Assembly: GCF_002951835.1 (NCBI RefSeq)
Contig: NZ_CP019448.1
Span: 2,401,382-2,465,381, forward strand
Length of the DNA: 64,000 nucleotides
Reading direction: 5' to 3'
From: Simonsiella muelleri ATCC 29453
GTDB lineage: Bacteria > Pseudomonadota > Gammaproteobacteria > Burkholderiales > Neisseriaceae
Positions within the stretch are counted from its first letter, which is position 1. Every line of letters begins with the position of its first letter. This document shows positions 32,885 to 64,000 of this stretch, one piece after another. The notes below the pieces were generated by a model. That model saw nothing but the letters and a program-made list of their open reading frames with translations. It was not told the origin of the DNA and made no database searches. A program made the translations under genes and the position numbers.

Positions 32885-32892
32885 TTTAATAA

Positions 32893-40478: not shown

Positions 40479-40551
40479 TTTTTTACTCCTTAAAATTTTT
40501 TCAGGCAGCCTGAAAAATATCCAAGCTGCCTGAAAATAAATAAATTTCTAA

Positions 40552-41823: not shown

Positions 41824-41974
41824 TGCAACTCTCTTTAGTTAATTAAAAAACAGGGAAACATAAACCGAATGATAGTGCATTTCAATAGAAAAATGCCAGT
41901 TTTTATGTTATTTTCTTGTTACAAATGGCAAGTTTGCCACACACATTTTGAATAATTACTTTTGAGACAATAAA

Positions 41975-42490: not shown

Positions 42491-42555
42491 ATGCGATTGT
42501 TTTCAGGCAGCCTGAAAATTTTGCAAAATAAATTAAACAAATTAAACAAATCAAC

Positions 42556-50538: not shown

Positions 50539-50614
50539 GGGTCGTTAGCTCAGTCGGTAGAGCAGCGGACTTTTAATCCGTTGGTCGAGCGTTCGAATCG
50601 CTCACGACCCACCA
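50539..50614 (+). tRNA. tRNA-Lys (anticodon TTT)
   Basis: GGGTCGTTAGCTCAGTCGGTAGAGCAGCGGACTTTTAATCCG..CCA, a cloverleaf with an encoded CCA. An integrase gene abuts its 3' end. Confidence 0.9.
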
Positions 50615-50618
50615 AATT

Positions 50619-51701
50619 TTACAAGCCTAAACAGTTGTTTAGGCTTTTTTCTTTTGTCCCCGAATTATCGGATTTTTTGGATTGTGTCCAAATTGTGTCC
50701 CAATTTAACAGTAAATTATCCGCGTGGTCTTGCAAGTGTTGTGATGAAAGATGTGCGTATTTCTGCACCATTTCCAAACTTTCCCAACCACCCATTTCTT
50801 TGAGAGCCAAAAGCGGTACGCCACTTTGCACCAACCAACTTGCCCATGTGTGGCGTAAGTCATGCCATTTGAAATTACTAATCCCAGCTTCTTTTAAGCC
50901 TTTTCTCCAAATGCGATGACTGACCGCTTTAACAGGCTGCCCTTTGCTGTTATTAAACACAAAAGGCGTGGTTTTCTGTCGGACTGCCAAAACCTGTAAT
51001 GCCACCTGATTAAGCGGTACGCCCAAAGCCTGACTGTTTTTAGTCTCATCAGGATAAATCCATGCGATACGCCGTTTTAAATCAATCTGTTCCCATTTTA
51101 AATTCAACACATTATTTTGTCGCAAACCTGTTACTAGTGAAAAAATAATCATATGCTGCATATAGGGCAAGTTTTCAAAGGCATGAACCAATTTTTGGGC
51201 TTCCTGCGGTTTGAGCCAGCGAATGCGTTTTTTCGGCTCTTTGTACAATGTGAGTTTGGGGGCTTTACTCAACCAGTCCCATTCATTCACGCATTTGTTC
51301 AAAATGGAACGAATTAACGCCAAATAGCGGTTTTTCGTACTGTTTGAACAAGGCAATTCACTAACCACTTTCATAATCGTTTTGCGGTCTAAATCTTGCA
51401 AATACCGACCACGCAAGGCGGTTAATTGCCGAATACGACAAATATCGTCTTCAATACTCTTTTTGTCTTGTTTCTCCTTAATCCATTTGGCGGCAGCTTC
51501 GTCCCATAAATGTTTTGGCAGCACACCTAAATGCTGTTGCTGCCAAATTTCATGTTCTAACTGCACTCTGTACGCTTGAGCCTTCGCCTTGTCGCTGGTG
51601 CCAGTAGAGCGTCTAATTCGCTGATTGCCTGCTCTGATGTCAAGATACCAAACGCCGTCTCTCTGGTAGATACCTTTGTTTTTACTTTGCTTTTTGGACA
51701 T
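50619..51701 (-). CDS. int: Tyrosine-type site-specific integrase (P4-like), oriented towards the tRNA-Lys 3' end
   Basis: 360 aa. C-terminal catalytic region (..HDLRHTWASWLVQSG ... MGGWESLEMVQKYAHL). Confidence 0.9.
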   Translation of the reverse strand: MSKKQSKNKGIYQRDGVWYLDIRAGNQRIRRSTGTSDKAKAQAYRVQLEHEIWQQQHLGVLPKHLWDEAAAKWIKEKQDKKSIEDDICRIRQLTALRGRYLQDLDRKTIMKVVSELPCSNSTKNRYLALIRSILNKCVNEWDWLSKAPKLTLYKEPKKRIRWLKPQEAQKLVHAFENLPYMQHMIIFSLVTGLRQNNVLNLKWEQIDLKRRIAWIYPDETKNSQALGVPLNQVALQVLAVRQKTTPFVFNNSKGQPVKAVSHRIWRKGLKEAGISNFKWHDLRHTWASWLVQSGVPLLALKEMGGWESLEMVQKYAHLSSQHLQDHADNLLLNWDTIWTQSKKSDNSGTKEKSLNNCLGL

Positions 51702-51904
51702 TGTTGTTCACTCCGTTGTTGAAGTGATGTCTGTACGACATCATTTTCAAGTGATTGAAGAAACTCGTCAAGTTTCGCCTGACGAATGCAATAGGCTCGC
51801 CCGATTTTCGCCGCAACCAGTTTTCCTGCTCTGATGTATTCGCGTAGGGTTTCGGGGTGACAATGGGCGAGCTTGGCAGCTTCAGTTACGGTGTAGGTTT
51901 TCAT
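51557..51904 (-). CDS. Excisionase / AlpA-like HTH DNA-binding protein
   Basis: N-terminal YTVTEAAKLAHCHPETLREYIRAGKL (MerR/AlpA-type HTH). The 3' end overlaps the integrase start. Confidence 0.5.
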   Translation of the reverse strand: MKTYTVTEAAKLAHCHPETLREYIRAGKLVAAKIGRAYCIRQAKLDEFLQSLENDVVQTSLQQRSEQQCPKSKVKTKVSTRETAFGILTSEQAISELDALLAPATRRRLKRTECS

Positions 51905-52002
51905 GGTTTTTCCTGTTTGGGCAAGCTATCTTCACGTTTATTCATCGTTTTTCCTTTTGAAAAATTTCAGGCAGCCTGAAAAAATTCAAACTGCCCAAAC
52001 CA

Positions 52003-52446
52003 TTACAAAATCAATGACGCAATCAACACGCCCACTTGCACAACCAACAAAATCATCATTAAGCGAAAAGTCCGAGTTTCTAAGCTCTGAAATAAGTCCA
52101 CCGACATTTCACTAAATTGGTCTTGAATGCGCTTGCTAACTTGGGCAAACAATTTGTTTTCGTTTTCAGCCAGCATTTGTGTGTTGGTATGCAAAATTTC
52201 CTGAATAACCAAATTTTTTTGTTGGCTGAATGCGTCCGCCGACCCGACAATCGCGTTGGCTTTTTTCGTCAATTCATCAAGGAAAAATTGCTGTTGCGCT
52301 TGATGTTGCGCCACCAGTTCCGCCATTTCGCGGCGTTGAATTAACATCATGGCAATAATTGGGTCATCTGCCGTCATTTTATAGCCTGTCAAGTCATAGA
52401 GTTCAACAAGCAACTTTTGCACTTCGTCATGCTGTTTCGGGTTCAT
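52003..52446 (-). CDS. Plasmid-type transfer protein, TraM-like (IncP Tra1 core)
   Basis: About 147 aa with a C-terminal transmembrane helix. It lies immediately downstream of, and overlaps, a TraL-like ATPase gene. The assignment is by synteny and size. Confidence 0.35.
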   Translation of the reverse strand: MNPKQHDEVQKLLVELYDLTGYKMTADDPIIAMMLIQRREMAELVAQHQAQQQFFLDELTKKANAIVGSADAFSQQKNLVIQEILHTNTQMLAENENKLFAQVSKRIQDQFSEMSVDLFQSLETRTFRLMMILLVVQVGVLIASLIL

Positions 52447-53182
52447 GGCTGATTTCCGCATCAGTTAAGGGAATGGCATCAAGCTGGCTGAAAATGCTTT
52501 CTTTAACCATATTCAGACGGCGTTTTTCAGCGAACCGAAATTCAGGTGATACTTTCACTTCTTCAAACGTCAAATTCATTTCCGTCATGGTCGTAATGTC
52601 TTTGCCGTAGGTATCGGCTGCCAAAGATTCAATTTTTACAATGCCCAAAATGCGTTCTTGGTTGGCTTTATAAACAGAAAATTCTTTGAATGTTTTGCCT
52701 TTCAATTCAATTTTGCCGTTATGCTCGTTCAACCAAACAATCACATCGGCATTGTGTTTTTCCAAAATCTTGTCCAAACCTTTCACACATTCGGTCAGAG
52801 CTTGCCCACCGTCCAATGGTACATGGAACACCAAGCGGACACCTTCTTCTGCCAATGCGTTAGCCGTGTCGTTTTCTGCCATATAATTCATCAAAGGCGA
52901 AAAAGTCGCCGAGCCATTGTCCACTACCGCGAAACCGTCTTGATAAATCAAGGCTTCTACCAAATCATCAAATGGGCGTGTATTGATGGAATCATCATCA
53001 TTTAAGATATTGATGACTTCTGCATTAAATGCTGGATAGTTGGCAAATGAATGATTTTGTGGGTCAGTATCGTAACAATGTAAATGTGTGGTTTTGCCTT
53101 GCAAATATTGCACCACCAAAGACGCAATAAATGTTTTCCCCACACCGCCCTTGCCTTGTGCTACCATGTGAACTTCTTGCAT
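52427..53182 (-). CDS. ParA/MinD-like P-loop ATPase, TraL-like (IncP-type)
   Basis: Deviant Walker A motif AQGKGGVGKT. 251 aa. Confidence 0.6.
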   Translation of the reverse strand: MQEVHMVAQGKGGVGKTFIASLVVQYLQGKTTHLHCYDTDPQNHSFANYPAFNAEVINILNDDDSINTRPFDDLVEALIYQDGFAVVDNGSATFSPLMNYMAENDTANALAEEGVRLVFHVPLDGGQALTECVKGLDKILEKHNADVIVWLNEHNGKIELKGKTFKEFSVYKANQERILGIVKIESLAADTYGKDITTMTEMNLTFEEVKVSPEFRFAEKRRLNMVKESIFSQLDAIPLTDAEISHEPETA

Positions 53183-53275
53183 AAAAATTCCTTTAAAAAT
53201 AGCCCCTTATTCTGTACGATAAGGGGCGTTAGGTTTATCAAAAAAAGAATATTGGATTATTCAGGCTGCCTGAAA

Positions 53276-53836
53276 TTATTTCACATCTACCCATTTATGA
53301 CCGCAAGCGTATTTTTCCGTGTGTGGCTGTGAATGAGACAATGAGCCACCAAATCCGCCAATACTGCGCACCATGCGCGTACAGTACACCGTTTGTAATT
53401 CGGTTTTGACCGTAGTCCATTCGTGGTTTTCGTAGGCAGCGCAATAGCTGGGTTTAGTTTTACTCACAACAAAACGGCGATTTTGACCCAAACCCACATA
53501 ATGCCCGATTTTATTCAACTCGGCGGCATCGCAACGTCCAGCACCCTTTGCCAACGCATTAACCAGTTGGGGCATATTCGGTTCTCTGCTGGACGGACAC
53601 AAATTCAAGAAATCCTTACGCGCCTGAATGGTTTTATATGGCTTTTTCAGTTTGATGGAAAAATAGCGGTGCAAAGATTCCGCGCATTCGTTCGGACGTT
53701 CTGCGCTGGACAAGCACAAAATTGCTTCACACGCCAAGCGGGTATCGCCTGTGAGCAAATCGTCTGCATGAGCCGAAAGCGGCACAAAAAAAGTGGCAGA
53801 AACAGCCGTTACCACCAGCAATTTTTTCATTTTCAT
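53276..53836 (-). CDS. Secreted protein, TrbM-like
   Basis: Signal peptide, then DLLTGDTRLACEAILCLSS, as I recall for TrbM-family proteins. Confidence 0.45.
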   Translation of the reverse strand: MKMKKLLVVTAVSATFFVPLSAHADDLLTGDTRLACEAILCLSSAERPNECAESLHRYFSIKLKKPYKTIQARKDFLNLCPSSREPNMPQLVNALAKGAGRCDAAELNKIGHYVGLGQNRRFVVSKTKPSYCAAYENHEWTTVKTELQTVYCTRMVRSIGGFGGSLSHSQPHTEKYACGHKWVDVK

Positions 53837-53935
53837 GATAAAACACTCCTAAAATAGATAGGTTAAAACAGTCATTTGCAAAAATTTTGCAAAACAAAAC
53901 CAGCTTGTTCAAACTGGCTTGGGTTTGCAACCATT

Positions 53936-54361
53936 TCAGGCTGCCTGAAATACTTTTTCATCAGAAAAATAAGTGTTTGGGTAACGGCGGTAAATGCTTT
54001 TTCTCAAACGCTCATACGTGGCTTGGACATTGGGAAACTTACGCTTTTTCCTGCTTCTGACCATTTCTAGCATGACTTGACCGCGCCCATTTTTCGGCGG
54101 ACGGTATACGGCAATTACTTCAACCAAACCGTTGCGTTCGCGTACCAGCATAACTGTTTCACGGTTCAAATCATCATAGGTAATTTTGTCGTAGTTACCA
54201 ATCAAACTGTCCACACTGAATTTTGCGTGTGTCAGCGCGGTTTCACGGCTCATGCCATGCGCCAACATCTTTTTAAATTGGCTGTAAATATGGTTGCGCT
54301 GTTGAGCAAATTTAGGCTCGGCAATCGGTTTTAAGATTTGAGCCAAGGTTTTGTTTTTCAT
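53936..54361 (-). CDS. Small basic protein; candidate oriT-binding (TraK-like) accessory protein
   Basis: Start moved to MKNKTLAQ at 54361. 141 aa, basic. It is the first gene of the leftward operon, next to a roughly 600 bp ORF-free, repeat-containing region. Confidence 0.3.
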   Translation of the reverse strand: MKNKTLAQILKPIAEPKFAQQRNHIYSQFKKMLAHGMSRETALTHAKFSVDSLIGNYDKITYDDLNRETVMLVRERNGLVEVIAVYRPPKNGRGQVMLEMVRSRKKRKFPNVQATYERLRKSIYRRYPNTYFSDEKVFQAA

Positions 54362-55066
54362 AACAACACCTAAATCAATTAAAACATTGCAACCACTCAC
54401 CCAGCCAAAGCTAAGCGAGCGGTGCAACTTCATAAGGAATAATTTTAAAAACAATATTTAAAATCACACGATTTCATAGCGGAGCATTGCTCAACGCTGC
54501 CTGAAACCCTGTATTCGCTGCCTACTGCCGCAGCGTTAGAACCATTCCGTAGATAGATTCCAGCATTGGGAATACGTCCCAATTCATCAAGATACGTTCA
54601 AATTGTCGCCTGTTCACGGACGCACAATGCGCTACCCGTATGCACGGACATTTCAACTGCTTGGGGCTGATTGAATGCAGCCTGAAACCCAATTACACGA
54701 CTTACTTTCTGAAATCAATCAGGGAAGTTGGGTTACTTGCGTTTCCAAATTGTTAAAGAACTGTGATACCTGCACAGCTCAAATTAAACACTACGTTTAA
54801 GAAAAAATCAACACTTTGTTTAAATTTCAAAATAAACTTTTGATAGTAAATGAAATATTTTTTAAGAGATTTACAGTAAGTTTAATTTTTGATGATTTTG
54901 AGCAAGATATAGATAGCAAAAATCCCCGTGGCAACGGGGATTAATGTATGGCTCTCGTCTGATGATTAACCACGTCATGGAGTAAGCACGAAACGGAAAG
55001 TTATTGTCAGGGGAAATAGGCTTGGAAGTGAACCATAAGGCTATTTTAGCGGAGGTTCTGTTTTAA

Positions 55067-55375
55067 CTAAAAACCATCAAGCTGATTAGATTTAGGATAT
55101 TTTTTATTAAATACGTCCCATTCAGGCACTTCCCCATATTTTTCTTGATATTCACTATATGCAAACACATCCCATTCAGGTGGAGGAGCTGGTTTTTGTG
55201 TTTTAACCGCAGGCTTTTCATTAGAAGTAGAAATTTTAGTAGGATTTATAATTGGTGTTTCATGTGTTGGCGGTGATATTGTATAGTAATTTTTTGTTGT
55301 ATGTACACAAGATGTAGTTAATACTGATACGATACATAAGTTAAAAAATTTACTCATGATTTTCTCACTTTTCAT
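55067..55375 (-). CDS. Putative lipoprotein with a duplicated PEWDVF motif
   Basis: Signal peptide with an LTTSC lipobox-like sequence, a Pro-rich linker, and two copies of the motif (Y/V)PEWDVF. Confidence 0.35.
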   Translation of the reverse strand: MKSEKIMSKFFNLCIVSVLTTSCVHTTKNYYTISPPTHETPIINPTKISTSNEKPAVKTQKPAPPPEWDVFAYSEYQEKYGEVPEWDVFNKKYPKSNQLDGF

Positions 55376-55988
55376 AATTAAGGAAAATTCTTTTTAATTC
55401 AACAGCAATGCCAATAATTTGTGTATCAGTTGGCATAATTTCTGGCATCTGATTGTTATATTTTAAAAAATACTGGTTTTTTAAATCAATAGATAATTTA
55501 GCAACAATCCCACGTTCATTTGATGATACGAGTACAACATGGTTATGTTGTGCTTTTAAATGTGGATTGATAAGTAAAATATCATCTTTAAAAATGCCTA
55601 TACTTTGTAGTTCATCATTTGGTATTTTGACCCAAAATGGTATTTTGGGTGGTGCTGTAATAACTTGATTTAAATCCAATAATTTAAAATTTTTTTGACT
55701 ATTTGCAATTACAGTACCATAATTTTCATTAACAAAATGATTGATATTCCCTGTATTGTTGATGTTGGTAACTGCATTACTTTTCTCAATCAGCATTTCT
55801 CCCTTACCTGTTTTAACCCAGTTAGATGAAACATTTAATTTTTCTTGAATATCTAAAATTCCTTGATTTGAAATACCACGTTTTTCCCAATTTTTAACAA
55901 CTTGTGGGGAAGTGTTGAGTAAATGGGCAATTCCTGTTTGTGTATTTACTTGAAAAAGCTCCTGTGTCGCAGCGTATAGCCTTTGCAT
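55365..55988 (-). CDS. CI-like repressor (XRE HTH plus S24 LexA-like peptidase domain)
   Basis: N-terminal HTH. The C-terminal S24 fold (GIFKDDILLINPHLKAQHNHVVLV) includes the Ser/Lys dyad context. Confidence 0.7.
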   Translation of the reverse strand: MQRLYAATQELFQVNTQTGIAHLLNTSPQVVKNWEKRGISNQGILDIQEKLNVSSNWVKTGKGEMLIEKSNAVTNINNTGNINHFVNENYGTVIANSQKNFKLLDLNQVITAPPKIPFWVKIPNDELQSIGIFKDDILLINPHLKAQHNHVVLVSSNERGIVAKLSIDLKNQYFLKYNNQMPEIMPTDTQIIGIAVELKRIFLNYEK

Positions 55989-56138
55989 TGTGATGTCCAT
56001 AATGTATCTGTTTCAATTCTTTACAGTCCATAACTGCTAAATTATCCCTGATTTAAACAAAATGTTGTTAAACGCATTGTTTGACTTTTTATTAAACATA
56101 GTGTTTAATTTAAGCATTTTTAAACATGGAGTTTTGTT

Positions 56139-56327
56139 ATGAATGCCAACGAGCCATCAGACAAAAAGATTATTGAACAATTAGGTGGCACAAGTCAGGT
56201 GGCAAAATTGATAAAAGCCAGTCCACAACGTGTCCATAACTGGAAAAATCGGGGTATTCCAGCTTCTGTTAAATTAGCTTATCCTGAATTATTTCTAATT
56301 ACCCAAATTTCAAAAGAGCAAAAATAA
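56139..56327 (+). CDS. Cro-like small HTH regulator, divergent from the cI-like gene
   Basis: 62 aa. HTH LGGTSQVAKLIKASPQRVHNWKNRGIP. Confidence 0.55.
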   Translation: MNANEPSDKKIIEQLGGTSQVAKLIKASPQRVHNWKNRGIPASVKLAYPELFLITQISKEQK

Positions 56328-56333
56328 AGCCCA

Positions 56334-57179
56334 TTGGCTGCAACCAAATGGGCTTTCAAATGCTTTTATTACAAGCAGAAAGTTTACCATAAAATGCTTT
56401 TATTGCAAACCCTTAAATCACATCTCAACGAAGAATGCGCCATTGTTTACCGCGAATTTAGCGCAATTTGTGGCACAAATGTTCAGGCTGCCACGATGTT
56501 GTCCAAATTCGTGTATTGGTCTGATGTCGTTCATCGCACCGAGCCGCAAAAATGTGGCTGGTTCTACAAAACCGCCCAACATCTTTACGATGAATTGGGC
56601 TTAACTCGTCGTGGCTATGAAAAAGCACGAAACTTTCTGATTTCACAGGGTTTACTGCAATACAGACGCGGTGGCGTTCACGGTAAAATGCACTTTTGCG
56701 TGAATTTTGGGCGTTTGCTGGAAATGGTTTATGAAATTAAAGGTATGGTTGCACCAAAAAATATTTTGCAAACCCAAATTGACCGCGACAATTACACCAT
56801 TCCCAAATTTATTCCATTGGACAAATGGAATGATTATCTTGATGTTTACAAAGATAAAAAAGGCAAATTTCCCAGCAATAAACAAAAAAGTGCCTTGATT
56901 AAGCAGTTGGCACGTTTGCGTGGCAAATTTGATTTGAATGTGGTTATGGAACGCAGTATTGTTGCTGGTTGGATTGGCTTTTATTCGCCTGAATATCAGC
57001 CCAGCCAAGTGAATAGCTATCAAGAACAAAAACACATTCAAGCCATTCAAAAAGAAATCCAAGAGCAACAGAGACAACGTGAGAGCCAAGCTCCACCGCG
57101 TAGTGAAGCCGCCAAGCAGGAACAAAAGCAAATTATGGCGGAGATAATGAAACACCTGAAAAAGGCTAAAAAGTGGTGA
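56334..57179 (+). CDS. Hypothetical protein; candidate replication / primosome-loading protein of the element
   Basis: It lies downstream of the cro-like gene. It has a Q/K/E-rich basic C-terminal tail. An iteron-like repeat cluster follows. Confidence 0.3.
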   Translation: MAATKWAFKCFYYKQKVYHKMLLLQTLKSHLNEECAIVYREFSAICGTNVQAATMLSKFVYWSDVVHRTEPQKCGWFYKTAQHLYDELGLTRRGYEKARNFLISQGLLQYRRGGVHGKMHFCVNFGRLLEMVYEIKGMVAPKNILQTQIDRDNYTIPKFIPLDKWNDYLDVYKDKKGKFPSNKQKSALIKQLARLRGKFDLNVVMERSIVAGWIGFYSPEYQPSQVNSYQEQKHIQAIQKEIQEQQRQRESQAPPRSEAAKQEQKQIMAEIMKHLKKAKKW

Positions 57180-57606: not shown

Positions 57607-57879
57607 TTGCCCAATTTCCGTGAAAACATTGAATTTGCCAAATACCGTGAACCGATTGCCATTACACAATACGGCAAACCTGCTGTGGTTTTGATGAGTT
57701 ATGAAGAAGCGGTTAATTTATTGAACATCAAAGAAAAAGCATATTCAGATGAACGAGTGCCCAATGAATTAACTCGCCAAGCCATGCAAGAATTGAGAGA
57801 TGACCGTCAGAGCCGACATTTGAAACGACATGATAGCGTAGAAGCTATGATAGCGGATATTCAGGTGTTTGAAGAATGA
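57607..57879 (+). CDS. Phd/YefM-family antitoxin-like protein
   Basis: IEFAKYREPIAITQYGKPAVVLMSYEEAVNL matches the YefM/Phd N-terminal fold signature. Its stop overlaps the start of the next ORF (ATGA). Confidence 0.65.
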   Translation: MPNFRENIEFAKYREPIAITQYGKPAVVLMSYEEAVNLLNIKEKAYSDERVPNELTRQAMQELRDDRQSRHLKRHDSVEAMIADIQVFEE

Positions 57880-58433
57880 ACCGTACACTTGTACCGAGAA
57901 TACGCGAAATTCAAGCTGAATTTTTGGCTCAGCTGCCCGATGAATTACATCAAGGACAAGTTGGGCGTGTTGCCAAACGTTTTGCATTGGTGGCAACAGC
58001 GTTGGAAATGTCGCGTTCTATTACATGCATTATGCAGGGCATGGGTATGTTAATGGTGCAAAAGTGTTTTGATGATTGGCTCAACCGTACAGGTGCTGGT
58101 AAACAAGAAGATTTGAAAATCATCAAGAAAATGGCGGACTTTATGCAACTAAACGCTGACAATGGGCGTTTTGCTCAATGGGACGCTAAAATCACATCGT
58201 CCAACCATGCAGGGTATTTCAGGAAAGTGGATTATGGTAAAAGTACCCACTATTGGATGGTACCGGCGGTGTTTGAACAGGAAATTTTTCAGGGTATTGA
58301 TATTCAAAAAGTGTGTCAGGTTCTGTGTGATTTGGGGTGGTTAATCCGCCCTAATGATAAAAACTGGAAGCATTTGAAACGTGATAAAGGGCGTTTTTAT
58401 GTTATTAAAGGAATTGAAATTCCTGAAAAATAA
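57876..58433 (+). CDS. Hypothetical 185 aa protein translationally coupled to the Phd/YefM-like gene. It is not Doc-, RelE- or YoeB-like.
   Basis: A 4-nt overlap with the upstream gene. I recognise no Fic motif or RelE fold. Confidence 0.4.
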   Translation: MNRTLVPRIREIQAEFLAQLPDELHQGQVGRVAKRFALVATALEMSRSITCIMQGMGMLMVQKCFDDWLNRTGAGKQEDLKIIKKMADFMQLNADNGRFAQWDAKITSSNHAGYFRKVDYGKSTHYWMVPAVFEQEIFQGIDIQKVCQVLCDLGWLIRPNDKNWKHLKRDKGRFYVIKGIEIPEK

Positions 58434-58999
58434 TCTATTTTTTACTCAAAGCCATCAATCATTGATTTTGATTGATGGCTTTTTGTAACACCTTGTATCG
58501 CCCGTATCGCCCAGTATTATTCTAAATAATTTATTTAAATTCAATAATGTAACAGGTGTAACACCTGTAACTCCCAACTTTACCATTATTTGAATTTAGA
58601 AAATAACTTTATTTAAGAAACAATCATATTTAGGGTATTACGGGTGTTATATCTTTTAACCATATGTTTTTATTAATAAATATTTTATTATTAGGGTGTT
58701 ACAAAGGTGTTACGAGGCTGTTACATCCATTTATCAAAGAAAAAAATTTGGTGGAATGCCAAAAATTGTTGGGGTCCTGATTTTTTTAATAAAAAAAAAT
58801 TTGATTTATCAGGAAAAAAATCGTCAGAAGAAAAAATGCCTTTCGGTGGAGTTTTGGCAGTAGTGGATAAACCTGTTTTCTGATGATTATTTAATTGAAT
58901 TTAAATGGAAAAAAGTTTTATTTTTTTAAAAAATAACTTGATTTACACACGATTCGTGTGTATAATGGCTTTATTAAATGTTAAACAGGAACTTCAATT

Positions 59000-59323: not shown

Positions 59324-59493
59324 AATTAAGGCGATATGGGATAGCAATTATCTCATATCCACTAAAACTTAAATCATTGAACAATATGGAGATTTGAAAT
59401 GATTAAAGAAAATAAAACAGTAGCTGAACAACTAGATTTTGAATTGGCTGAAATCAAAAAGAAACATGAACTTGCCAATAAAAAGGCGGTCGT

Positions 59494-59751
59494 ATGGATT
59501 ATTTTAATGTTGTTATTGACGCTTTGGTTTTGGTCGTGGTTATGATGAATTTCCCTGAAATTGGCTACACGCCAGCGAATTTGCGTTATGTATTGGAACA
59601 AATGAGGTGGACACAAAAAGAGCTTGCAGAGCGTTTAAACGTCAGTTTAAGGGGCGTTCAAGCGTGGGTAGCAGACGTGGACAAACCAGCCCATAGGGAT
59701 ATGCCTGTAAGCCAATGGCAAGCCTTACTTGTGCTTATTCAGGCAGCCTGA
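59494..59751 (+). CDS. Small HTH (XRE-like) DNA-binding protein
   Basis: HTH WTQKELAERLNVSLRGVQAW. Confidence 0.4.
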   Translation: MDYFNVVIDALVLVVVMMNFPEIGYTPANLRYVLEQMRWTQKELAERLNVSLRGVQAWVADVDKPAHRDMPVSQWQALLVLIQAA

Positions 59752-59977
59752 AACAGCAAAAATCGCCTATTTCTACAATAGCGGAAATAGGCGATTTTTT
59801 TAACTATTGTTGAATAGCGTTTGCCTAATTCTACGTTCATTTTCTGCTCCAACCACTTGATTAAATCATCTCTATTTTCAAATTTAGGAACAGCCACGAA
59901 ATCATCTTCAACTCGTGATTTCACGCGTTTGAAATCAAAATTAAATACTTATTGTTTCATCGTTTTTTTCCATATTG

Positions 59978-60385
59978 CTAAATCAAATCATCAATATCAC
60001 GCTGTTCACGCGAATTGAATTTTTTGAAACCTGTGTTAATCGGGTGGCGGTCATTTTCGGTTGGTGGTGGAGTGGTGGTTTTCGCTGGTGGTGGCACATC
60101 ATTTTTTACCACAGGCTCAAGTTGGGCAGGTTTGGACGGTTGAGCCTGATTAGGGCGTGTTTTTTGGGTTGGCACGGTGGCTGTTTGGCTTCTATTCTTG
60201 ATAAATGATTTGAGCGTGGTTAAGCCCACTTGTAAGCCATTTTCTTGCAAAAATGCCAAAATTTGGGCTTGTGAGTAGCCTTCATTTTTCAGGAAAAAAA
60301 TGTCATCTTTGAACGGCTCTAATTTGGAAACACGCCCTTTTTTGGGATTTTTGTTGATAAATTCTTGTACAGATTGGCTAATCAT
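59978..60385 (-). CDS. Hypothetical DNA-binding protein (HTH plus a Pro/Thr-rich linker)
   Basis: Start moved to MISQSV at 60385. Possible HTH YSQAQILAFLQENGLQVGLTTLKSFI. Confidence 0.35.
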   Translation of the reverse strand: MISQSVQEFINKNPKKGRVSKLEPFKDDIFFLKNEGYSQAQILAFLQENGLQVGLTTLKSFIKNRSQTATVPTQKTRPNQAQPSKPAQLEPVVKNDVPPPAKTTTPPPTENDRHPINTGFKKFNSREQRDIDDLI

Positions 60386-60774
60386 AGTTGTTTTATCGGC
60401 TAAATTAAGGCTAAATAAGGTCAATTATAGTCTAAATATTGGACTATTTAAAGTCCAAATTAAGCCGTTTAAAGTCTATTTTAAAGTTGCATTATGGTTT
60501 ACTTAAATCTAATTTATGGCTAATTTTGGTTTAATTGAAGTCTAAATATGGTCTATGGTGTGGGTTATATATTTTTTGTTTAAAAACCTTAAAAATTTAG
60601 AACGCAGGATAGGCACAACGTGCCAAAAACACCGCTAAATGCGATGTTTTACATTCCGCGTTCGCGGAAACGCCCCTTGTGGGGCTGGTTCATCAGGCAA
60701 AAAGAAAAGGCACTCCGAAGCCCATAGCGGACTTCGGAATGCCTTTGGTGTCAGAAAAAAAGTAGGGCTGCGCG

Positions 60775-61905
60775 TCAGCGTTCCATTTCCCAATCATCAC
60801 GACTGGGATTTTTCGGCTCGGCTTTCGGCTCGCTGATTTGGGTTTGAGATTGTTGGTGAGAATGCGCGTGGCGGTCGTAGATTTGTTGGGCTTGAGTATC
60901 CAAACTTTTTCCTGAAACTTCTTTGGCAAAATCTTTCATGATTTTGGCTTCGGTTTTGTAACCCAATTTGTACAATTCCCTCGAAATCAAGCTGTACTGC
61001 TCTGTAATGTGGTCTTTGGCTTGCTGAGCTTTTCCCTGAAAAGGATGTTGCGGTCGCTGTTGCGCTTGCAGAGCTTCTAAAATCGCTTCAACATTGGTTT
61101 GGGCAATGTGGCTGCGCTTGATGTTTTCAGGCTGCTTGCCCTGTTTTTCTTCCTGTATGGTTCGGAGAATGATTTGGCGAATGTCGGCTTTCTGCCCTTT
61201 AATGCTCTGCCCACGATGTTGTCGCCGCGTGGCGGTGCATTCTACACCTTGTTCACGCATTTTTTCAGCAAAACGGACGCGCCACTCAAACAAATCATTT
61301 TTGCGTGGATTTAAGCGGATACCATCATAATCCCTAACCATGACACACAAATGGACGTGTGGGTGTGGTGGCTCGCCGTCTCGCTCGCTTTCATGGTGCA
61401 ACACAAAGGCATATTCATGTTTTTCAAACTGTTCAGCCGCAAATTGGCGAGCCGCATTCAGTACGGCTTGCGGTGGCGTACCTGCGGGCATGGACAGCAC
61501 AATGTTAATCGCTTCGCGTTTGTCGGAATTTTCGCGTATGCCCGATTTTTGCCAATGGTTCATCAAGGATTGAATGGCTTGATTACCTTGAACTTTGTCG
61601 CCGTCTCGGGTTTCAAGTGGTAATTCGCCATTACGCGAAATGTATTTCATGTGGTTTTGTACACCGTTAATTCCTTTGGAATTTTTACTAACACGTTTGG
61701 CAATTTTAACCATCACTTCAGGCTTTTTGGCGGCGGCTGCCTGTAAATTTTTGAGACCTGTGCCTGATTTTAAACCTGTTTTTGCAAACGGTTTGGTGTT
61801 GCGGTTTGGGTTACTGCCACCGCCCAAAGAACTGCGTTTGGGTTTTACCGCATGGGTTTTGTAGCCGATGAACCAGTCATCAATTTGTTTGTTTAGTTGC
61901 TGCAT
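60775..61905 (-). CDS. Relaxase / mobilization nuclease (MobA / VirD2-like, MOBP/Q type)
   Basis: Three-His motif HHESERDGEPPHPHVHLCV. 376 aa. The C-terminus ..RDDWEMER is shared with the partial relaxase at the window end. Confidence 0.8.
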   Translation of the reverse strand: MQQLNKQIDDWFIGYKTHAVKPKRSSLGGGSNPNRNTKPFAKTGLKSGTGLKNLQAAAAKKPEVMVKIAKRVSKNSKGINGVQNHMKYISRNGELPLETRDGDKVQGNQAIQSLMNHWQKSGIRENSDKREAINIVLSMPAGTPPQAVLNAARQFAAEQFEKHEYAFVLHHESERDGEPPHPHVHLCVMVRDYDGIRLNPRKNDLFEWRVRFAEKMREQGVECTATRRQHRGQSIKGQKADIRQIILRTIQEEKQGKQPENIKRSHIAQTNVEAILEALQAQQRPQHPFQGKAQQAKDHITEQYSLISRELYKLGYKTEAKIMKDFAKEVSGKSLDTQAQQIYDRHAHSHQQSQTQISEPKAEPKNPSRDDWEMER

Positions 61906-62446
61906 ACATCAATCTCCAACTTTCGCTGAATTTAAGCGGTTTTTCTTGCTTTTCCAGTACTTTGTAAACAATATCCGTGTGATAGTCCAAATATTCCACA
62001 AATTCATTAAGCTGTTTGGTGGTAAATGAATGCGGCGACATTTCATTAAATTTTCGTGCTATTTGATTGATATTTCGCCCAATTCGTAAAAGCTGGTAAT
62101 TGTATTGAAACAGAGCTTGAACCGCGTCATTGCCTAAAACAGGTTTTTTTGTAATGTATTCGGCGATGATGTCTCGGGCTACTTCGTTTAAGGTGCTATG
62201 TTGTTCTTTGGCTTTTTGGGTCAAATAAACCTGTTGCTTGGGTGGTAATCGCAAGGTTAAACGCTCAAATAATTGTTCTTCATGTGTATTCTCTATTTCA
62301 GTCTGCCTGATTTGCGCTTGTAACAATTTTTTGGCGAGTAGAGAAACGCTGGCTTTACCGTAGCGTTCTTTGGCGATTTGCCGCAATTGCTGAATTTCAT
62401 CAGTAGTTAAGCCATAAACATCTATTTTCTTTGATAAATTTTTCAC
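61880..62446 (-). CDS. mobC: Mobilization relaxosome accessory protein MobC
   Basis: Signature LRIGRNINQIARKFNE. It overlaps the relaxase start. Confidence 0.7.
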   Translation of the reverse strand: MKNLSKKIDVYGLTTDEIQQLRQIAKERYGKASVSLLAKKLLQAQIRQTEIENTHEEQLFERLTLRLPPKQQVYLTQKAKEQHSTLNEVARDIIAEYITKKPVLGNDAVQALFQYNYQLLRIGRNINQIARKFNEMSPHSFTTKQLNEFVEYLDYHTDIVYKVLEKQEKPLKFSESWRLMYAATKQTN

Positions 62447-62458
62447 TTTTTTCTCCGA

Positions 62459-62641
62459 CTATTCATAATTGATTGCGGTATCGTGTTTTAAAGTGCGCCG
62501 CCAATACTGTTTTTCACAGCGTTGGCAGTAATAGCGAAAGCGGCGGTCGCTGGCTTCGGTAACCACCACGCCAACACCGCAATTTTGGCAATAAAATTGA
62601 CGTGGTAAAGTCAAGTCGCCACTAAACTGCTTGACTTTCAT
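62459..62641 (-). CDS. Small zinc-ribbon protein
   Basis: CQNCG ... CQRCEK. 60 aa. Confidence 0.35.
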   Translation of the reverse strand: MKVKQFSGDLTLPRQFYCQNCGVGVVVTEASDRRFRYYCQRCEKQYWRRTLKHDTAINYE

Positions 62642-63191
62642 TTTCCAAATCTTTCAATAGATTACGGTAATATTCGGCAATCTCATCTTGTTGGCTGGCG
62701 GACAGTTTTTGGGTTGCATTGGGCAGTTTTTTCAGGCGAATAAGCTCATCAATTTGGCTTTGGCTTAATCGTTCATGCAACCATGCGGCACTTTCCAAAA
62801 TATCCTTACTAAACCAATAATTATGACAATGGTGGCAGAGTGCAGCCGCATTGTCGGGGTGGTAACGAATGCTGTAAAAACGCCGTGAAAAATGGTGGGA
62901 ACATTGCAGAGCTGTTGATTTTTTTGGGTATTGTTTGCCACAGCGTTCGCAACAATAGTTTGCCCTTGCTCTGATGTAGTCTGAAAAGGCTAAATCAGCG
63001 GCGGTATGGGTAAAGTTTTCGGTGGGTGTGTCGGGTTTCTCTTTGTGCAGTTTTTTCATTAAAACAATGGTTTCACTCAATAAATCATAGAGCGCGGTTT
63101 GCTGAAATTTTTTGCAATCACGTTGCCAAATTTTCAACTGAGCGATGTGTGCTTCAATCGGGTTGCTTTCTTTGAGTTTAATTACGGTCAT
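62622..63191 (-). CDS. HNH-like / zinc-finger nuclease-family protein
   Basis: CCERCG ... CSHHFSRR ... CHHCH. Confidence 0.4.
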   Translation of the reverse strand: MTVIKLKESNPIEAHIAQLKIWQRDCKKFQQTALYDLLSETIVLMKKLHKEKPDTPTENFTHTAADLAFSDYIRARANYCCERCGKQYPKKSTALQCSHHFSRRFYSIRYHPDNAAALCHHCHNYWFSKDILESAAWLHERLSQSQIDELIRLKKLPNATQKLSASQQDEIAEYYRNLLKDLENESQAV

Positions 63192-63266
63192 GGTGTTCTC
63201 CCAAAAACAAAACCCTGATTAACCATTTGGCTAAACAGGGTCTTATCTCAAAAATAAAAAATAAAA

Positions 63267-64000
63267 TCAGCGTTCCATTTCCCAATCATTATCACGGCTG
63301 GGCGCGCGCTCGTGTTTGGGTTCATGGACTTTTTCAGGCTGCCTGTCTTGCGTTTTCGCAGGGTCAGGCGCGTGATATTTGCCATCACGGATTAAATCGC
63401 TTTGGTTCTCGTAAATGGCTTGGCGCGTTTTTTCGTGGAACTCGGCTGGCATATGGCGCATGGCTGCCAATGCTTGCCGCTCGTAAAACCGTGCTTTGTG
63501 TTGCTGCTCGGTCGGCAGCGTTGCCAATTTGCTTTCGTATTGCGCTTTGGCGGTGTCGCTGGGCTTGGGCGCGTTGGTCTGCTGCGCTTGTGTGGCATGG
63601 GCTTTAACCGTGTCCGCCGCTTTGACTGCTTCAGTTGGAATGGTTTTCATGGTGCTTTCGGGACGTTCAGGCATGGCGGATTGCTGTTTTAGCTTTTCGG
63701 CTTCGGCAATACTGTTGGTGGCTCGTTCTTCGCGGCGGCGTTCCAAAATGGTTAAATCTTCGGGGCTGGGTTTGTAGCCTTTGGTGGCAATGCCGCGACT
63801 TTCTGCTTCCAACCACATTTGCTGCTTAAATTCTTGGCTGCCTGAAATTTTGATACTGTCCCAACCTTTGGCTTTTGCTACGTCCAACATATCTTGAATG
63901 GTTTGTTTGTCGTCTCGGGCGGTGTGTAGGGTTTTGCCTTTGTCTTCAAACAACACCGTTTTGGGATTGTCGGGTGCAGTGTAACGCAACAAATGTGCGC
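63267..64000 (-). CDS. C-terminal part of a second relaxase (LPD7-like tail). The 5' end lies outside the window.
   Basis: It ends ..SRDNDWEMER like the relaxase at 60775, and it contains KGWDSIKISGSQEFK...RGIATKGY. The nucleotide string CAGCGTTCCATTTCCCAATCAT is shared at both gene ends. Confidence 0.6.
   Translation of the reverse strand, partial: AHLLRYTAPDNPKTVLFEDKGKTLHTARDDKQTIQDMLDVAKAKGWDSIKISGSQEFKQQMWLEAESRGIATKGYKPSPEDLTILERRREERATNSIAEAEKLKQQSAMPERPESTMKTIPTEAVKAADTVKAHATQAQQTNAPKPSDTAKAQYESKLATLPTEQQHKARFYERQALAAMRHMPAEFHEKTRQAIYENQSDLIRDGKYHAPDPAKTQDRQPEKVHEPKHERAPSRDNDWEMER

What the first reader, a model, noticed from the sequence alone, without database searches (positions are those of the whole stretch)
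50539..64000. Integrated mobilizable element of at least 13.4 kb at the 3' end of tRNA-Lys: P4-like integrase, excisionase, IncP-like TraK/TrbM/TraL/TraM, a cI/cro switch, a Phd-like module and tandem MobC-relaxase units
The tyrosine integrase gene ends 4 bp after the tRNA-Lys CCA end and points towards it, which is the classic island junction. Rightwards come, in order, the following:
- an AlpA-like excisionase;
- a leftward operon of TraM-like, P-loop TraL-like, TrbM-like and small basic TraK-like genes, next to a roughly 600 bp ORF-free region;
- a divergent cI (S24 peptidase) / cro pair;
- a putative replication protein followed by iterons;
- a Phd/YefM-like gene;
- a MobC plus MOBP/Q relaxase pair;
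- a second relaxase C-terminus at the window edge.

This is a mosaic of phage-type integration and control with plasmid-type mobilization functions, that is, an integrative mobilizable element. No attR is visible, so the element continues beyond 64 kb. It carries DUS copies, so it is either ameliorated or was acquired from a relative.
Basis: partly seen in the sequence, partly recalled or inferred. Interest (0 to 1): 0.7.

Follow-up and report, generated by a model that had tools for sequence, protein, structure and literature searches.

The report
Conjugative island in tRNA-Lys of Simonsiella
The window ends in the first 13.4 kb of a roughly 32.5 kb self-transmissible conjugative island inserted in a lysine tRNA gene of the oral bacterium Simonsiella muelleri. 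It is a close cousin of the ICEriNK islands of Neisseria and Kingella, so it is largely ordinary, apart from a conserved folded non-coding leader that no RNA family in Rfam matches.

Summary
tRNA-Lys, the tyrosine integrase 4 bp away, the excisionase-type HTH, TraM/TraL/TrbM, the cI/cro pair, an O-like replication protein, and MobC plus a MOBP relaxase were all confirmed.

Three readings are wrong or unsupported:
- The "second relaxase" is the LPD7 tail of a 987-aa TraC-like primase.
- "TraK-like" and "P4-like" have no sequence support.
- The element is not merely mobilizable.

A 99.99 % identical copy shows what lies beyond the window: T4CP, VirB11 to VirB1 and Topo III, ending in attR. attR is an 84-nt repeat made of the last 49 nt of the tRNA plus 35 nt. 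The whole element is about 32.5 kb.

Empty sites exist in conspecific contigs. The type strain carries three copies. A second assembly of the same strain has lost this copie.

Gene order, att layout and 46-69 % protein identity (most shared backbone proteins) place it beside ICEriNK (Hughes-Games 2020). It differs in targeting tRNA-Lys rather than tRNA-Asn.

I also found:
- a conserved oriT candidate (TATCCTG|C);
- operator palindromes linking the switch to the excision operon;
- a roughly 300-nt leader supported by covariation, with no Rfam match.

Verdict: a new member of a known kind.

The parts
50539..50614 (+). tRNA-Lys(UUU). It is a chimera: the 5' part is host DNA and the 3' part (from the anticodon arm onward) is supplied by the element.
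   Evidence: ARAGORN and Rfam. attL carries G at 50595 and A at 50616, whereas attR of the same strain and the empty sites carry the host variants.
50566..50649 (.). attL copy of the 84-nt direct repeat. It consists of tRNA positions 28-76 plus 35 nt that include the tRNA terminator hairpin. The last codons of the integrase gene lie inside it.
   Evidence: Alignment with empty sites and with attR of the same strain (L051); 2 mismatches in 84 nt.
50573..50580 (.). Inferred strand-exchange segment TTAATCCG (tRNA positions 35-42, anticodon loop and stem).
   Evidence: Natural hybrid att sites L039/L050 switch from Lys-type to Asn-type sequence within this segment. The G/A polymorphism at position 57 places the crossover 5' of it. 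This is an inference.
50619..51701 (-). Tyrosine integrase, 360 aa.
   Evidence: PF00589, E 2.2e-32. It is 61-63 % identical to ICEriNK integrases. Homologues also occur in prophages.
51557..51904 (-). Excisionase-type HTH_17 protein, 115 aa. It overlaps the integrase start by 145 nt.
   Evidence: PF12728, E 1.3e-12. It is 59-69 % identical (tblastn) to the ICEriNK counterpart, and the overlap is conserved.
52003..52461 (-). TraM-like protein, 152 aa.
   Evidence: Weak hits only: Pfam Activator-TraM E 0.007 and R751 TraM E 0.002. It sits after TraL, as in IncP.
52427..53182 (-). TraL, a P-loop ATPase, 251 aa.
   Evidence: NCBIfam TraL E 2.5e-65 (below the curated cutoff). 40 % identical to R751 TraL.
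53276..53836 (-). TrbM, 186 aa.
   Evidence: PF07424, E 8e-37. 53 % identical to R751 TrbM.
53936..54361 (-). Small basic protein of unknown family (141 aa, or 172 aa from a TTG at 54454). It is the first gene of the operon that ends in xis-int.
   Evidence: pI 10.2. No family hit and no similarity to TraK. The single-sequence AF2 model was unusable, pLDDT 56.8.
54466..54770 (-). Conserved structured non-coding leader; the covariance-model core is 54533-54689. It lies between the operator/promoter and the first gene of the operon.
   Evidence: 76-78 % nt identity to ICEriNK where the neighbouring proteins are 32-66 % identical. About 20 metagenome contigs carry a match; on the twelve contigs with recognisable neighbouring genes it sits between the RepO side and TrbM. 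The model finds it in the unused lineage L105-107 (136 bits). 8 pairs show compensatory changes; 98 % of cells pair, against at most 51 % when slid. No Rfam family matches.
54784..54800 (.). Operator-like palindrome TTAAAC-N5-GTTTAA. It overlaps a promoter-like site (-35 TTGATT at 54811-54806, 17-nt spacer, -10 TTTAAT at 54788-54783).
   Evidence: There are only two exact copies in 64 kb; the other is in the cI/cro gap. The motif changes together with the immunity allele in L006 and L044. The promoter is read from the sequence and is an inference.
55365..56000 (-). cI-like repressor with a degenerate S24 domain.
   Evidence: PF00717, E 6e-8. In the alignment with UmuD the catalytic Ser is replaced by Glu and the Lys is kept.
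56068..56108 (.). Two operator palindromes in the cI/cro intergenic region (56068-56084 and 56092-56108).
   Evidence: sequence.
56139..56327 (+). Cro-like HTH protein, 62 aa.
   Evidence: YdaS_toxin E 5.8e-7 and P22_Cro E 3e-4, both just below their cutoffs.
56334..57179 (+). Phage O-like replication initiator (281 aa; gene callers give 261 aa).
   Evidence: PHROG 9773 E 4.5e-16 and PHROG 678 E 1.8e-12. 40 % identical to the ICEriNK counterpart.
57607..57879 (+). Orphan Phd/YefM-like gene, 90 aa.
   Evidence: PF02604, 28.4 bits against a cutoff of 29.8, and no toxin follows. Sister variants carry a complete Phd-YoeB pair here.
57876..58433 (+). C-terminal remnant of a DUF927 primase (residues 370-554 of 554).
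   Evidence: 97 % identical to the C-terminus of the intact 554-aa gene in L006. PHROG DNA primase E 9e-13.
58485..58950 (.). Iteron-like GGTGTTAC/GTAACACC repeats (58485-58725) followed by a stretch of about 27 % GC. A candidate origin belonging to the primase module.
   Evidence: Repeats and sequence; GC profile. The function is inferred.
59978..60385 (-). Basic 135/148-aa protein next to the oriT candidate, family unknown.
   Evidence: pI 9.7. Homologues flank the same motif in L044 and L100.
60590..60650 (-). oriT candidate: a hairpin followed by TATCCTG|C (motif at 60611-60604 on the minus strand).
   Evidence: It is the only YATCCTGY in the element part of the window. The block GCGGTGTTTTTGGCAC-N5-GCCTATCCTGCGT is shared with the metagenome lineage L100, and a 17-nt core GCCTATCCTGCGTTCTA with ICEriNK L044, inside an otherwise diverged spacer. 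DNA fold z-score -4.15.
60775..61905 (-). MOBP relaxase, 376 aa.
   Evidence: 52 % identical to the ICEriNK relaxase.
61880..62446 (-). MobC/DDP1-like relaxosome accessory protein.
   Evidence: PF05713, E 9e-6; NCBIfam DDP1, E 3.5e-7.
62622..63191 (-). NinG/HNH-type endonuclease, 189 aa. A 60-aa gene lies at 62459-62641.
   Evidence: PHROG NinG/Rap E 1.5e-20; Pfam NinG E 5e-5.
63267..64000 (-). C-terminal LPD7 part of a 987-aa TraC-like primase that runs off the window.
   Evidence: PF18821, E 9e-23. The full gene carries PriCT_2 + Toprim_3 + LPD7 in L001, which is 99.99 % identical to the window.

Best explanation
The window holds the integrase-proximal 41 % of a roughly 32.5 kb integrative and conjugative element (ICE) of Simonsiella muelleri ATCC 29453. 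It is inserted in a tRNA-Lys(UUU) gene and is a sister lineage of the ICEriNK elements of Neisseria and Kingella.

Shown here:
- The order of the integrated element is: attL, int, xis, TraM, TraL, TrbM, basic protein, structured leader, cI|cro, O-like Rep, accessory genes, oriT candidate, relaxase, MobC, NinG, primase, T4CP, VirB11-B8, Topo III, small cargo, VirB6-B1, attR.
- attL and attR are 84-nt repeats.
- The site is empty in other strains.
- Several copies exist in one genome.

Inferred:
- A cI-like repressor binds palindromic operators at the cI/cro switch and at the promoter of the operon that ends in xis-int. This keeps the element silent.
- On derepression, Xis and Int recombine attL and attR within the anticodon arm (TTAATCCG). 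Excision restores the host tRNA.
- In the circle, all transfer genes point the same way across attP.
- MobC and the MOBP relaxase nick at TATCCTG|C downstream of the relaxase gene.
- The T4CP hands the strand to a VirB-type (MPF_T) channel.
- The primase and Topo III assist establishment in the recipient.
- Int then integrates into a tRNA-Lys gene, and the element replaces the tRNA 3' half with its own copy.
For: - Extension of the window: L001 (CP083930.1) matches window 52622-64000 at 99.99 %. It continues into primase, VirD4, VirB11, VirB10, VirB9, VirB8 and Topo III. L049 overlaps L001 by coordinates and carries VirB1-B6 and attR.
- attR in the same strain: L051 (ATCC 29453 contig JH815310.1) joins the site's right-flank gene to VirB1 through the 84-nt repeat. 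The window is 100 % identical to the ATCC 29453 contig L009.
- Empty sites: L019, L020, L024, L025, L027 and L028.
- Second site: an identical tRNA-Lys next to mnmE carries the identical integrase.
- Cross-genus relative: Alysiella crassa, 87-92 % nt identity over the T4SS region, with the same tRNA-Lys repeat.
- Family: synteny and 46-69 % protein identity for Int, Xis, TraL, TrbM and relaxase (RepO 40 %, TraM 32 %) with the K. negevensis and N. meningitidis ICEriNK loci, which sit at tRNA-Asn. ICEriNK is described as 32 kb, MPF_T, MOBP, with a cro/cI pair (PMC7371117).
- oriT.
- Operators.
Against: - No experiment shows excision or transfer of this element. The circular form was not seen in any contig.
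- The middle of the site-1 copy itself (VirB4 to primase) was not read. It is inferred from the 99.99 % identical site-2 copy.
- The S24 domain of the repressor lacks the catalytic Ser, so induction by self-cleavage is doubtful and the trigger is unknown.
- The accessory region holds a truncated primase gene.
- The nick site rests on a motif and its conservation, not on mapping.
- The GTDB genome scan did not return S. muelleri, for reasons I could not establish.
Confidence: 0.9

Rival explanations
1. Integrative mobilizable element. It has its own integrase, oriT and relaxase but no mating channel, so it depends on a helper element's T4SS.
For: Within the 13.4 kb in the window there are no VirB or T4CP genes.
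Against: A 99.99 % identical copy continues directly into T4CP and VirB11-B8, then into VirB6-B1 and attR. The same strain's attR contig carries VirB1-B4 next to this site's flank.
Confidence: 0.03
2. An inactive remnant. The island was once an ICE but is now fixed and decaying, and serves only as cargo or a regulatory locus.
For: The primase gene is truncated. The S24 domain is degenerate. A third copy in the same genome is rearranged by IS elements and carries a truncated integrase. Other contigs show a copy cut in virB4 by an IS.
Against: Every backbone ORF in the window is full length. Where overlapping sequence is held (about 2 kb), the site-1 and site-2 copies differ by 2 nt, and a copy in CP083930 differs from the window by 1 nt in 11.4 kb. 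This points to a recent duplication by re-integration. Occupancy is polymorphic among conspecific metagenome contigs. Non-coding control elements are conserved.
Confidence: 0.12
3. A prophage or phage satellite rather than a conjugative element.
For: The int-xis module is shared with RecT/SSB-type prophages of Neisseria and Eikenella. It also has a cI/cro switch, an O-like initiator, NinG and a DUF927 primase fragment.
Against: There are no capsid, tail, terminase or lysis genes in the window or its extension. Instead there is a complete MPF_T set with relaxase and T4CP. A scan of viral contigs for the leader motif found nothing.
Confidence: 0.02
4. For the conserved element at 54466-54770: it acts as single-stranded DNA on the transferred strand (a priming or ssDNA-promoter signal in the recipient), or as a double-stranded protein-binding region, rather than as an RNA leader.
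For: The folding strand is also the predicted transferred strand, given the orientation of the nick motif. The central 60 nt are invariant, which suits sequence-specific protein recognition. The element lies about 6 kb into the leading region.
Against: It sits directly downstream of an operator-overlapped promoter-like site and upstream of the first gene of an operon, in every lineage seen. G-U pairs (about 16 % of cells) and compensatory changes argue against a purely double-stranded role. Related plasmids with the same primase type lack it.
Confidence: 0.3

Closest known systems
[quoted passage not shown] 2020, PMC7371117)
   Same: - Size of about 32 kb, MPF_T virB operon, MOBP relaxase and T4CP.
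- Terminal integrase next to a tRNA, and a roughly 50-60 bp repeat of the tRNA 3' end at the far side.
- A cro/cI pair near the integrase end, and a variable region between relaxase and integrase.
- AG-kingDUS/AG-simDUS dyads.
- Multiple copies in one genome.
- The same gene order at the integrase end.
- A shared oriT block and a shared structured leader.
   Different: - It targets tRNA-Lys(UUU), not tRNA-Asn.
- The integrase is only 61-63 % identical, whereas ICEriNK integrases are more than 95 % identical to each other.
- The hosts are Simonsiella and Alysiella.
- The repressor allele is unrelated to the ICEriNK one and lacks the catalytic Ser.
- The cargo differs.
ICENmu of Neisseria mucosa/sicca (same paper)
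   Same: An MPF_T, MOBP ICE of Neisseriaceae with a terminal tyrosine integrase. Its integrase is about 55 % identical to that of ICEriNK, a similar distance.
   Different: ICENmu integrates at an intergenic 21-bp motif centred on a DUS, not in a tRNA. I made no sequence comparison with it here.
MPF_T / MOBP conjugative plasmids: pWTk445 of Advenella, and the IncP-1 traK-traL-traM and trbM genes (R751)
   Same: - The order TraL, TrbM, VirB1-B11, T4CP, PriCT_2 primase, nuclease, MobC, relaxase is collinear with the circular form of the element. The relaxase is 45.8 % identical.
- TraL is 40 % and TrbM 53 % identical to the R751 proteins.
- The nick motif is of the RP4/VirD2 type.
   Different: - The plasmids have no integrase, att site, cI/cro switch or structured leader.
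- In IncP the oriT lies beside traK. Here the motif lies after the relaxase gene.
- No TraK homologue is detectable.
SXT/R391-type control by a lambda cI-like repressor (SetR). This comparison is from established knowledge and is also drawn in PMC7371117.
   Same: A divergent cI/cro-type pair sits next to the integration module.
   Different: SetR is cleaved after DNA damage. Here the S24 Ser is replaced by Glu, so a different trigger is likely. One candidate is the AntA-domain protein encoded between VirB6 and Topo III; this is an inference.

Membership tests
Integrative and conjugative element (ICE) | A site-specific recombinase and flanking direct repeats (attL/attR) at a defined target | tested here: met
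   PF00589 integrase. An 84-nt repeat is present at window 50566-50649 and at the far end in the same strain (L051), with 2 mismatches. Empty sites exist.
Integrative and conjugative element (ICE) | Relaxase, type IV coupling protein and a complete mating-pair-formation system within the att-bounded segment | tested here: met
   The relaxase is in the window. T4CP, VirB11, VirB10, VirB9 and VirB8 are in L001. VirB1-B6 and attR are in L049. This was shown on the 99.99 % identical copy; for the site-1 copy only VirB1-B4 (L051) and the window part were read.
Integrative and conjugative element (ICE) | Excision to a circle and self-transfer | not testable with these tools
   Only indirect signs are available: polymorphic occupancy, near-identical copies at two tRNA-Lys genes and a close relative in another genus.
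Integrative mobilizable element (IME) | Lacks its own mating-pair-formation genes | tested here: not met
   A full VirB set and a T4CP are present.
ICEriNK | MPF_T operon, MOBP relaxase, T4CP, a cro/cI pair and the same gene order | tested here: met
   compared with the description in PMC7371117.
ICEriNK | Integration at the 3' end of tRNA-Asn | tested here: not met
   The window and site 2 are tRNA-Lys(UUU). ICEriNK loci L044 and L046 are at tRNA-Asn(GUU).
ICEriNK | Integrases more than 95 % identical within the family | tested here: not met
   61-63 % identity to the K. negevensis and N. meningitidis-type integrases.
MOBP relaxases | Relaxase domain with the histidine triad, similarity to typed MOBP relaxases, and a YATCCTG|Y nick motif nearby | tested here: met
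   MobP1 E 1.3e-29, but 103.6 bits against a curated cutoff of 200, so the subfamily is not assigned. 45.8 % identical over 95 % of its length to a relaxase typed MOBP by MOB-suite. HPHVH is visible in the sequence. The nick motif is at 60604-60611. MOBscan itself was not run.
P4-type integrases | N-terminal DUF4102 arm-binding domain | tested here: not met
   Only PF00589 matches. At E up to 10 there are just weak DUF6538 and SAM_5 hits. PRK09692 scores E 0.009.
Self-cleaving LexA/cI/UmuD (S24) repressors | Ser-Lys catalytic dyad | tested here: not met
   In the alignment with UmuD, GDSM is replaced by NDEL (Ser to Glu). The Lys is kept.
IncP TraK | Sequence similarity to TraK | tested here: not met
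   BLASTP against R751 TraK gives E 37. There is no Pfam, NCBIfam or PHROG hit. The fold test failed for lack of a confident model.
Phd/YefM-Doc/YoeB toxin-antitoxin module | An antitoxin above the family threshold with an adjacent toxin gene | tested here: not met
   28.4 bits against 29.8. The next ORF is a primase fragment.
Any Rfam family (for the leader at 54466-54770) | A match to a curated covariance model | tested here: not met
   Nothing below E 0.1 across the element. Only chance-level hits appear at E up to 10 on the region alone.

The most novel reading that the evidence does not exclude
The roughly 300-nt conserved, covarying element between the operator-controlled promoter and the operon that ends in xis-int is an undescribed cis-regulatory RNA. 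Alternatively, it is a transferred-strand DNA signal. It is specific to this superfamily of Neisseriaceae ICEs and gates excision and transfer.

In addition, these integrases exchange strands in an anticodon-arm core that differs by one base between tRNA-Lys and tRNA-Asn. Target switching would then need only capture of a new tRNA 3' half. The natural Lys/Asn hybrid junctions suggest this has happened.
Probability: 0.45. Interest if true: 0.6.

Novelty: new member of a known kind. Interest (0 to 1): 0.4.

Why it matters
- It extends the ICEriNK-type elements to commensal Simonsiella and Alysiella and to a second tRNA target. These elements carry toxin-antitoxin and virulence-associated loci between pathogenic Neisseria.
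- This supports the published idea that such elements evolved in hosts that use the AG-kingDUS/simDUS dialect.
- It gives a candidate oriT for the lineages where the region was held, a testable regulatory wiring (a shared operator at the switch and at the excision operon), and a conserved structured leader that could be a handle on how these ICEs decide to move.
- The difference between two assemblies of the type strain means culture-collection stocks differ by a 32-kb island and a tRNA gene.

Tried and rejected
- Walking out of the window with a Topo III fragment returned only short fragments.
- The single genome-collection scan found Alysiella crassa but not S. muelleri.
- I tested whether the ORF-free gap is oriT, as in IncP. 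I rejected this because the only MOBP nick motif, with conserved flanks, lies after the relaxase gene.
- I tested TraK-likeness by family searches, by direct comparison with R751 TraK, and by a single-sequence AlphaFold model. The model had pLDDT 56.8 and was too poor for a fold search.
- I asked whether the leader is a small ORF. Indels of 1-2 nt between lineages break any reading frame.
- Rfam at permissive thresholds gave nothing.
- A viral-contig scan for the leader motif gave nothing.
- About 30 of the 49 metagenome hits to the 18-mer were chance matches and were dropped after BLAST and covariance-model checks.
- The single-sequence fold energy of the leader is not significant on its own (z -1.45). 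The case rests on covariation.
- I did not use the representative-protein search or the fold searches.

Full report
**Observation**

ARAGORN and Rfam place tRNA-Lys(UUU) at 50539-50614. The 360-aa tyrosine recombinase ORF (50619-51701, minus strand) stops 4 nt from the CCA end.

Family searches confirm the following:
- an HTH_17 excisionase-type gene;
- TraL (NCBIfam E 2.5e-65; 40 % identical to R751 TraL);
- TrbM (Pfam E 8e-37; 53 % identical to R751 TrbM);
- an S24-type cI and a Cro-like gene in divergent orientation;
- MobC/DDP1;
- a MOBP relaxase (MobP1 E 1.3e-29; 45.8 % identical to the MOB-suite-typed MOBP relaxase of plasmid pWTk445).

TraM is only weakly supported. The "replication protein" matches phage O-like initiators.

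Three labels do not hold:
- The "TraK-like" protein is basic (pI 10.2) but has no detectable relative in Pfam, NCBIfam or PHROGs. It shows no similarity to R751 TraK.
- The integrase lacks the P4-type arm domain.
- The "second relaxase C-terminus" is an LPD7 domain at the end of a 987-aa PriCT_2 + Toprim_3 + LPD7 primase.

**What lies beyond the window**

The 189-aa NinG-like protein is encoded on a complete chromosome, CP083930.1. Locus L001 there matches window 52622-64000 with one mismatch in 11,379 nt. It continues into the primase, a VirD4-type coupling protein, VirB11, VirB10, VirB9, VirB8 and Topo III.

A second locus of the same record (L049) overlaps L001 by its record coordinates. 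It adds a 55-aa gene, an AntA-domain gene, an MNT/HepT pair, a 160-aa gene, VirB6, VirB5, VirB4, VirB3, VirB2 and VirB1, and then the end of the element.

The element is therefore a complete ICE of mating-pair-formation type T, not a mobilizable element. From the record coordinates its length is about 32.5 kb.

**Ends and crossover**

Alignment of the window with empty sites shows that identity does not stop at CCA. It continues for 35 nt through the tRNA terminator hairpin, and this stretch also encodes the last residues of the integrase.

At the far end, the last 49 nt of the tRNA plus the same 35 nt recur next to VirB1. This is seen in metagenome contigs with this site's right flank (L034-36), in Alysiella crassa, and in contig JH815310.1 of S. 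muelleri ATCC 29453 (L051). The window is 100 % identical to another contig of that assembly (L009), so attR is documented in the same strain.

The repeat is 84 nt (window 50566-50649) with two mismatches. Position 50595 is G in attL and A in attR. Position 50616 is A in attL and G in attR. The empty sites carry the attR-type base at 50616, and the closest strain (L019) also carries the A at 50595. So the 3' part of the working tRNA in the window comes from the element.

Two loci (L039 and L050) carry a junction that is Lys-type up to the anticodon and tRNA-Asn-type from position 43. An ICEriNK-type integrase remnant follows. This places strand exchange within TTAATCCG (tRNA positions 35-42, window 50573-50580). 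This step is an inference.

**Evidence of mobility**

- Six of ten contexts of the left-flank gene have an intact tRNA followed directly by the FAD-monooxygenase gene.
- The identical integrase sits beside a second, identical tRNA-Lys next to mnmE. Its far end abuts PdxA/Sel1.
- The type strain also holds a third copy, rearranged by IS elements, at the hybrid Lys/Asn junction.
- CP083930.1 is identical to the window over the 10,778 nt to the left of the tRNA. It then lacks the tRNA's first 56 nt and the whole element. What remains is the last 20 nt of the attR pseudo-tRNA, including its diagnostic A. That is a deletion scar, not a product of site-specific excision. The record is used as the S. 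muelleri genome in a 2026 preprint.
- The A. crassa relative is 87-92 % identical in DNA over the T4SS region.

**Family**

Hughes-Games et al. (PMC7371117) defined ICEriNK. It is 32 kb, with an MPF_T virB operon, a MOBP relaxase and a T4CP. The integrase lies next to tRNA-Asn, with a repeat of about 50-60 bp at the far end. There is a cro/cI pair near the integrase, the region between relaxase and integrase is variable, and gonococcal strain WHO F carries two copies. Its DUS dialect points to Kingella/Simonsiella-like hosts.

I fetched the integrase ends of the K. negevensis element used in that paper (L046) and of a fitAB/vapD-carrying element matching the paper's description of the meningococcal cluster (L044). 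Both lie at tRNA-Asn and have the same gene order as the window.

Protein identities to the window:

| Protein | Identity |
|---|---|
| Int | 61-63 % |
| Xis | 59-69 % |
| TraL | 46 % |
| TrbM | 54-66 % |
| Rep | 40 % |
| Relaxase | 52 % |
| TraM | 32 % |

Two defining features of ICEriNK are not met: the tRNA-Asn target, and integrases more than 95 % identical within the family. I therefore call the element a sister lineage rather than a member. The paper lists the S. muelleri genome only for DUS counts and does not describe this element. No other paper mentions ICEriNK.

The backbone is collinear with MPF_T/MOBP plasmids such as pWTk445. The int-xis module also occurs in RecT-type prophages.

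**oriT**

The only YATCCTGY in the element part of the window is TATCCTGC at 60611-60604 (minus strand). It lies 165 nt downstream of the relaxase stop and directly follows a hairpin.

A 17-nt block, GCCTATCCTGCGTTCTA, is identical in the meningococcal-type ICEriNK locus L044, inside an otherwise unalignable spacer. A longer block, including the hairpin flank, recurs in a third lineage from metagenomes (L100). In each case a homologue of the basic 135-aa protein lies nearby, and each lineage has its own array of short repeats there.

I take this as the nick region. The minus strand would then be transferred towards decreasing coordinates (an inference).

**Control**

The palindrome TTAAAC-N5-GTTTAA occurs exactly twice in 64 kb. 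One copy is in the cI/cro gap, with a one-mismatch copy beside it. The other is at 54784-54800, in the ORF-free gap. There it overlaps a promoter-like site that faces the operon of the basic protein, TrbM, TraL, TraM, xis and int (sequence).

In a sister allele with an unrelated repressor (L006), and in ICEriNK (L044), the motif is different. In each case it again appears at both places. This fits one repressor controlling both the switch and the excision/transfer operon.

The repressor's S24 domain aligns with UmuD, but the catalytic Ser is replaced by Glu. RecA-stimulated self-cleavage is therefore unlikely. An AntA-domain protein encoded in the T4SS region is a possible anti-repressor (an inference).

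**The ORF-free gap holds a conserved structured element**

Between the promoter and the first gene, window 54466-54770 is 76-78 % identical in DNA to ICEriNK. That is more conserved than the flanking proteins.

An 18-mer from it retrieved about 20 metagenome contigs that BLAST confirmed. On the twelve contigs with recognisable neighbouring genes, the element lies between the Rep side and TrbM-TraL-TraM-xis-int, in the same orientation as that operon.

It is not coding, because indels of 1-2 nt between lineages break any reading frame.

RNAalifold predicts a multi-hairpin fold. On a MAFFT alignment, 5 of 40 pairs show changes on both sides and 98 % of cells pair, against at most 48 % when partners are slid.

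A covariance model of the 148-position core finds the element in a lineage not used to build it (L105-107, 136 bits). It does not find it in pWTk445, R751 or the prophages. On the 14-sequence model alignment, 8 of 35 pairs show changes on both sides. That alignment is fitted to the model, and the number of independent lineages is only about five.

Roughly 16 % of paired cells are G-U. The fold therefore belongs to the minus strand, which is both the sense strand of the operon and the predicted transferred strand. A further hairpin after the core has a different stem sequence in every lineage. No Rfam family matches.

I favour a 5' leader RNA. A transferred-strand DNA signal is the main rival.

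**Accessory region**

- The 185-aa ORF is residues 370-554 of a DUF927 primase that is intact in sister variants.
- It is followed by GGTGTTAC-type repeats and an AT-rich stretch.
- The Phd-like gene is below threshold and has no toxin partner. Sister variants carry a complete Phd-YoeB pair.
- The region between relaxase and integrase is thus a recombination mosaic, as reported for ICEriNK.
- DUS density is 0.45 per kb in the element against 0.99 per kb in the chromosome, with equal GC content.

**Verdict**

The element is a complete ICE of an already described kind. Its novelty is limited to a new target and new hosts, plus the control and transfer signals described above. Of these, the structured leader is the one that deserves follow-up.

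Noticed in passing
window 54466-54770 (minus strand); also L044 6407-6686, L046 6004-6290, L105 3625-3775, L100 11356-11502: A conserved, non-coding, covarying multi-hairpin element lies in the ORF-free gap upstream of the operon that ends in xis-int. It is present in every ICEriNK-like lineage examined and absent from related plasmids and prophages. No Rfam family matches.
   Followed up: yes
window 54784-54800, 56068-56084, 56092-56108: The operator-like palindrome TTAAAC-N5-GTTTAA is shared by the cI/cro gap and the promoter region of the excision/transfer operon. In other immunity alleles a different motif again occurs at both places.
   Followed up: partly
L039 272-320 and L050 about 9757-9805: Hybrid attachment site. 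The Lys-type element arm runs through the anticodon TTT, then joins a tRNA-Asn 3' half and about 100 nt of an ICEriNK-type integrase remnant. This suggests cross-use of Asn-type sites by the Lys-type element.
   Followed up: partly
L021 (CP083930.1, about 1,403.7 kb) against window 50538 onward: A second assembly of what appears to be the same strain is 100 % identical over 10,778 nt. It then lacks the first 56 nt of tRNA-Lys and the whole element, and keeps only the last 20 nt of the attR pseudo-tRNA. This is a roughly 32-kb deletion that is not a site-specific excision product.
   Followed up: partly
window 60775-60810 and 63267-63300 (protein C-termini): The relaxase and the primase both end in SRD(D/N)DWEMER. 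Related relaxases and primases in ICEriNK and pWTk445 end in (E/I/L)ER.
   Followed up: partly
window 51557-51701: xis and int overlap by 145 nt in different frames. The overlap and both protein sequences are conserved in ICEriNK.
   Followed up: partly
window 55365-56000: The S24 domain of the cI-like repressor has Glu where UmuD has its catalytic Ser. An AntA-domain gene sits in the T4SS region of the element (L049 17398-18087).
   Followed up: partly
window 58485-58950: At least eight GGTGTTAC/GTAACACC repeats, followed by a stretch of about 27 % GC, lie downstream of the truncated DUF927 primase gene. This is a likely orphaned replication origin.
   Followed up: no
L023 and L026 against window about 30,300-42,500: In some conspecific contigs the chromosome to the left of the tRNA is rearranged. 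It looks like an inversion, and in L023 one breakpoint is immediately right of the tRNA-Lys terminator.
   Followed up: no
L024 14546-16447; L034 4165-6066: A DarT/NADAR (DarTG-like) module with an HTH gene splits the DEAD-box helicase gene to the right of the insertion site in some strains.
   Followed up: no
window 16272-17125: An IS-like segment in the chromosomal part of the window recurs, at 99.8 % identity, beside the rearranged third ICE copy (L050 7621-8474).
   Followed up: no
L108 and L109: Integrase homologues (51 % and 64 % identical), with the same HTH_17 partner, belong to RecT/SSB-type prophages of Neisseria sp. and Eikenella sp. The integration module is therefore shared between phages and ICEs in this bacterial family.
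   Followed up: no
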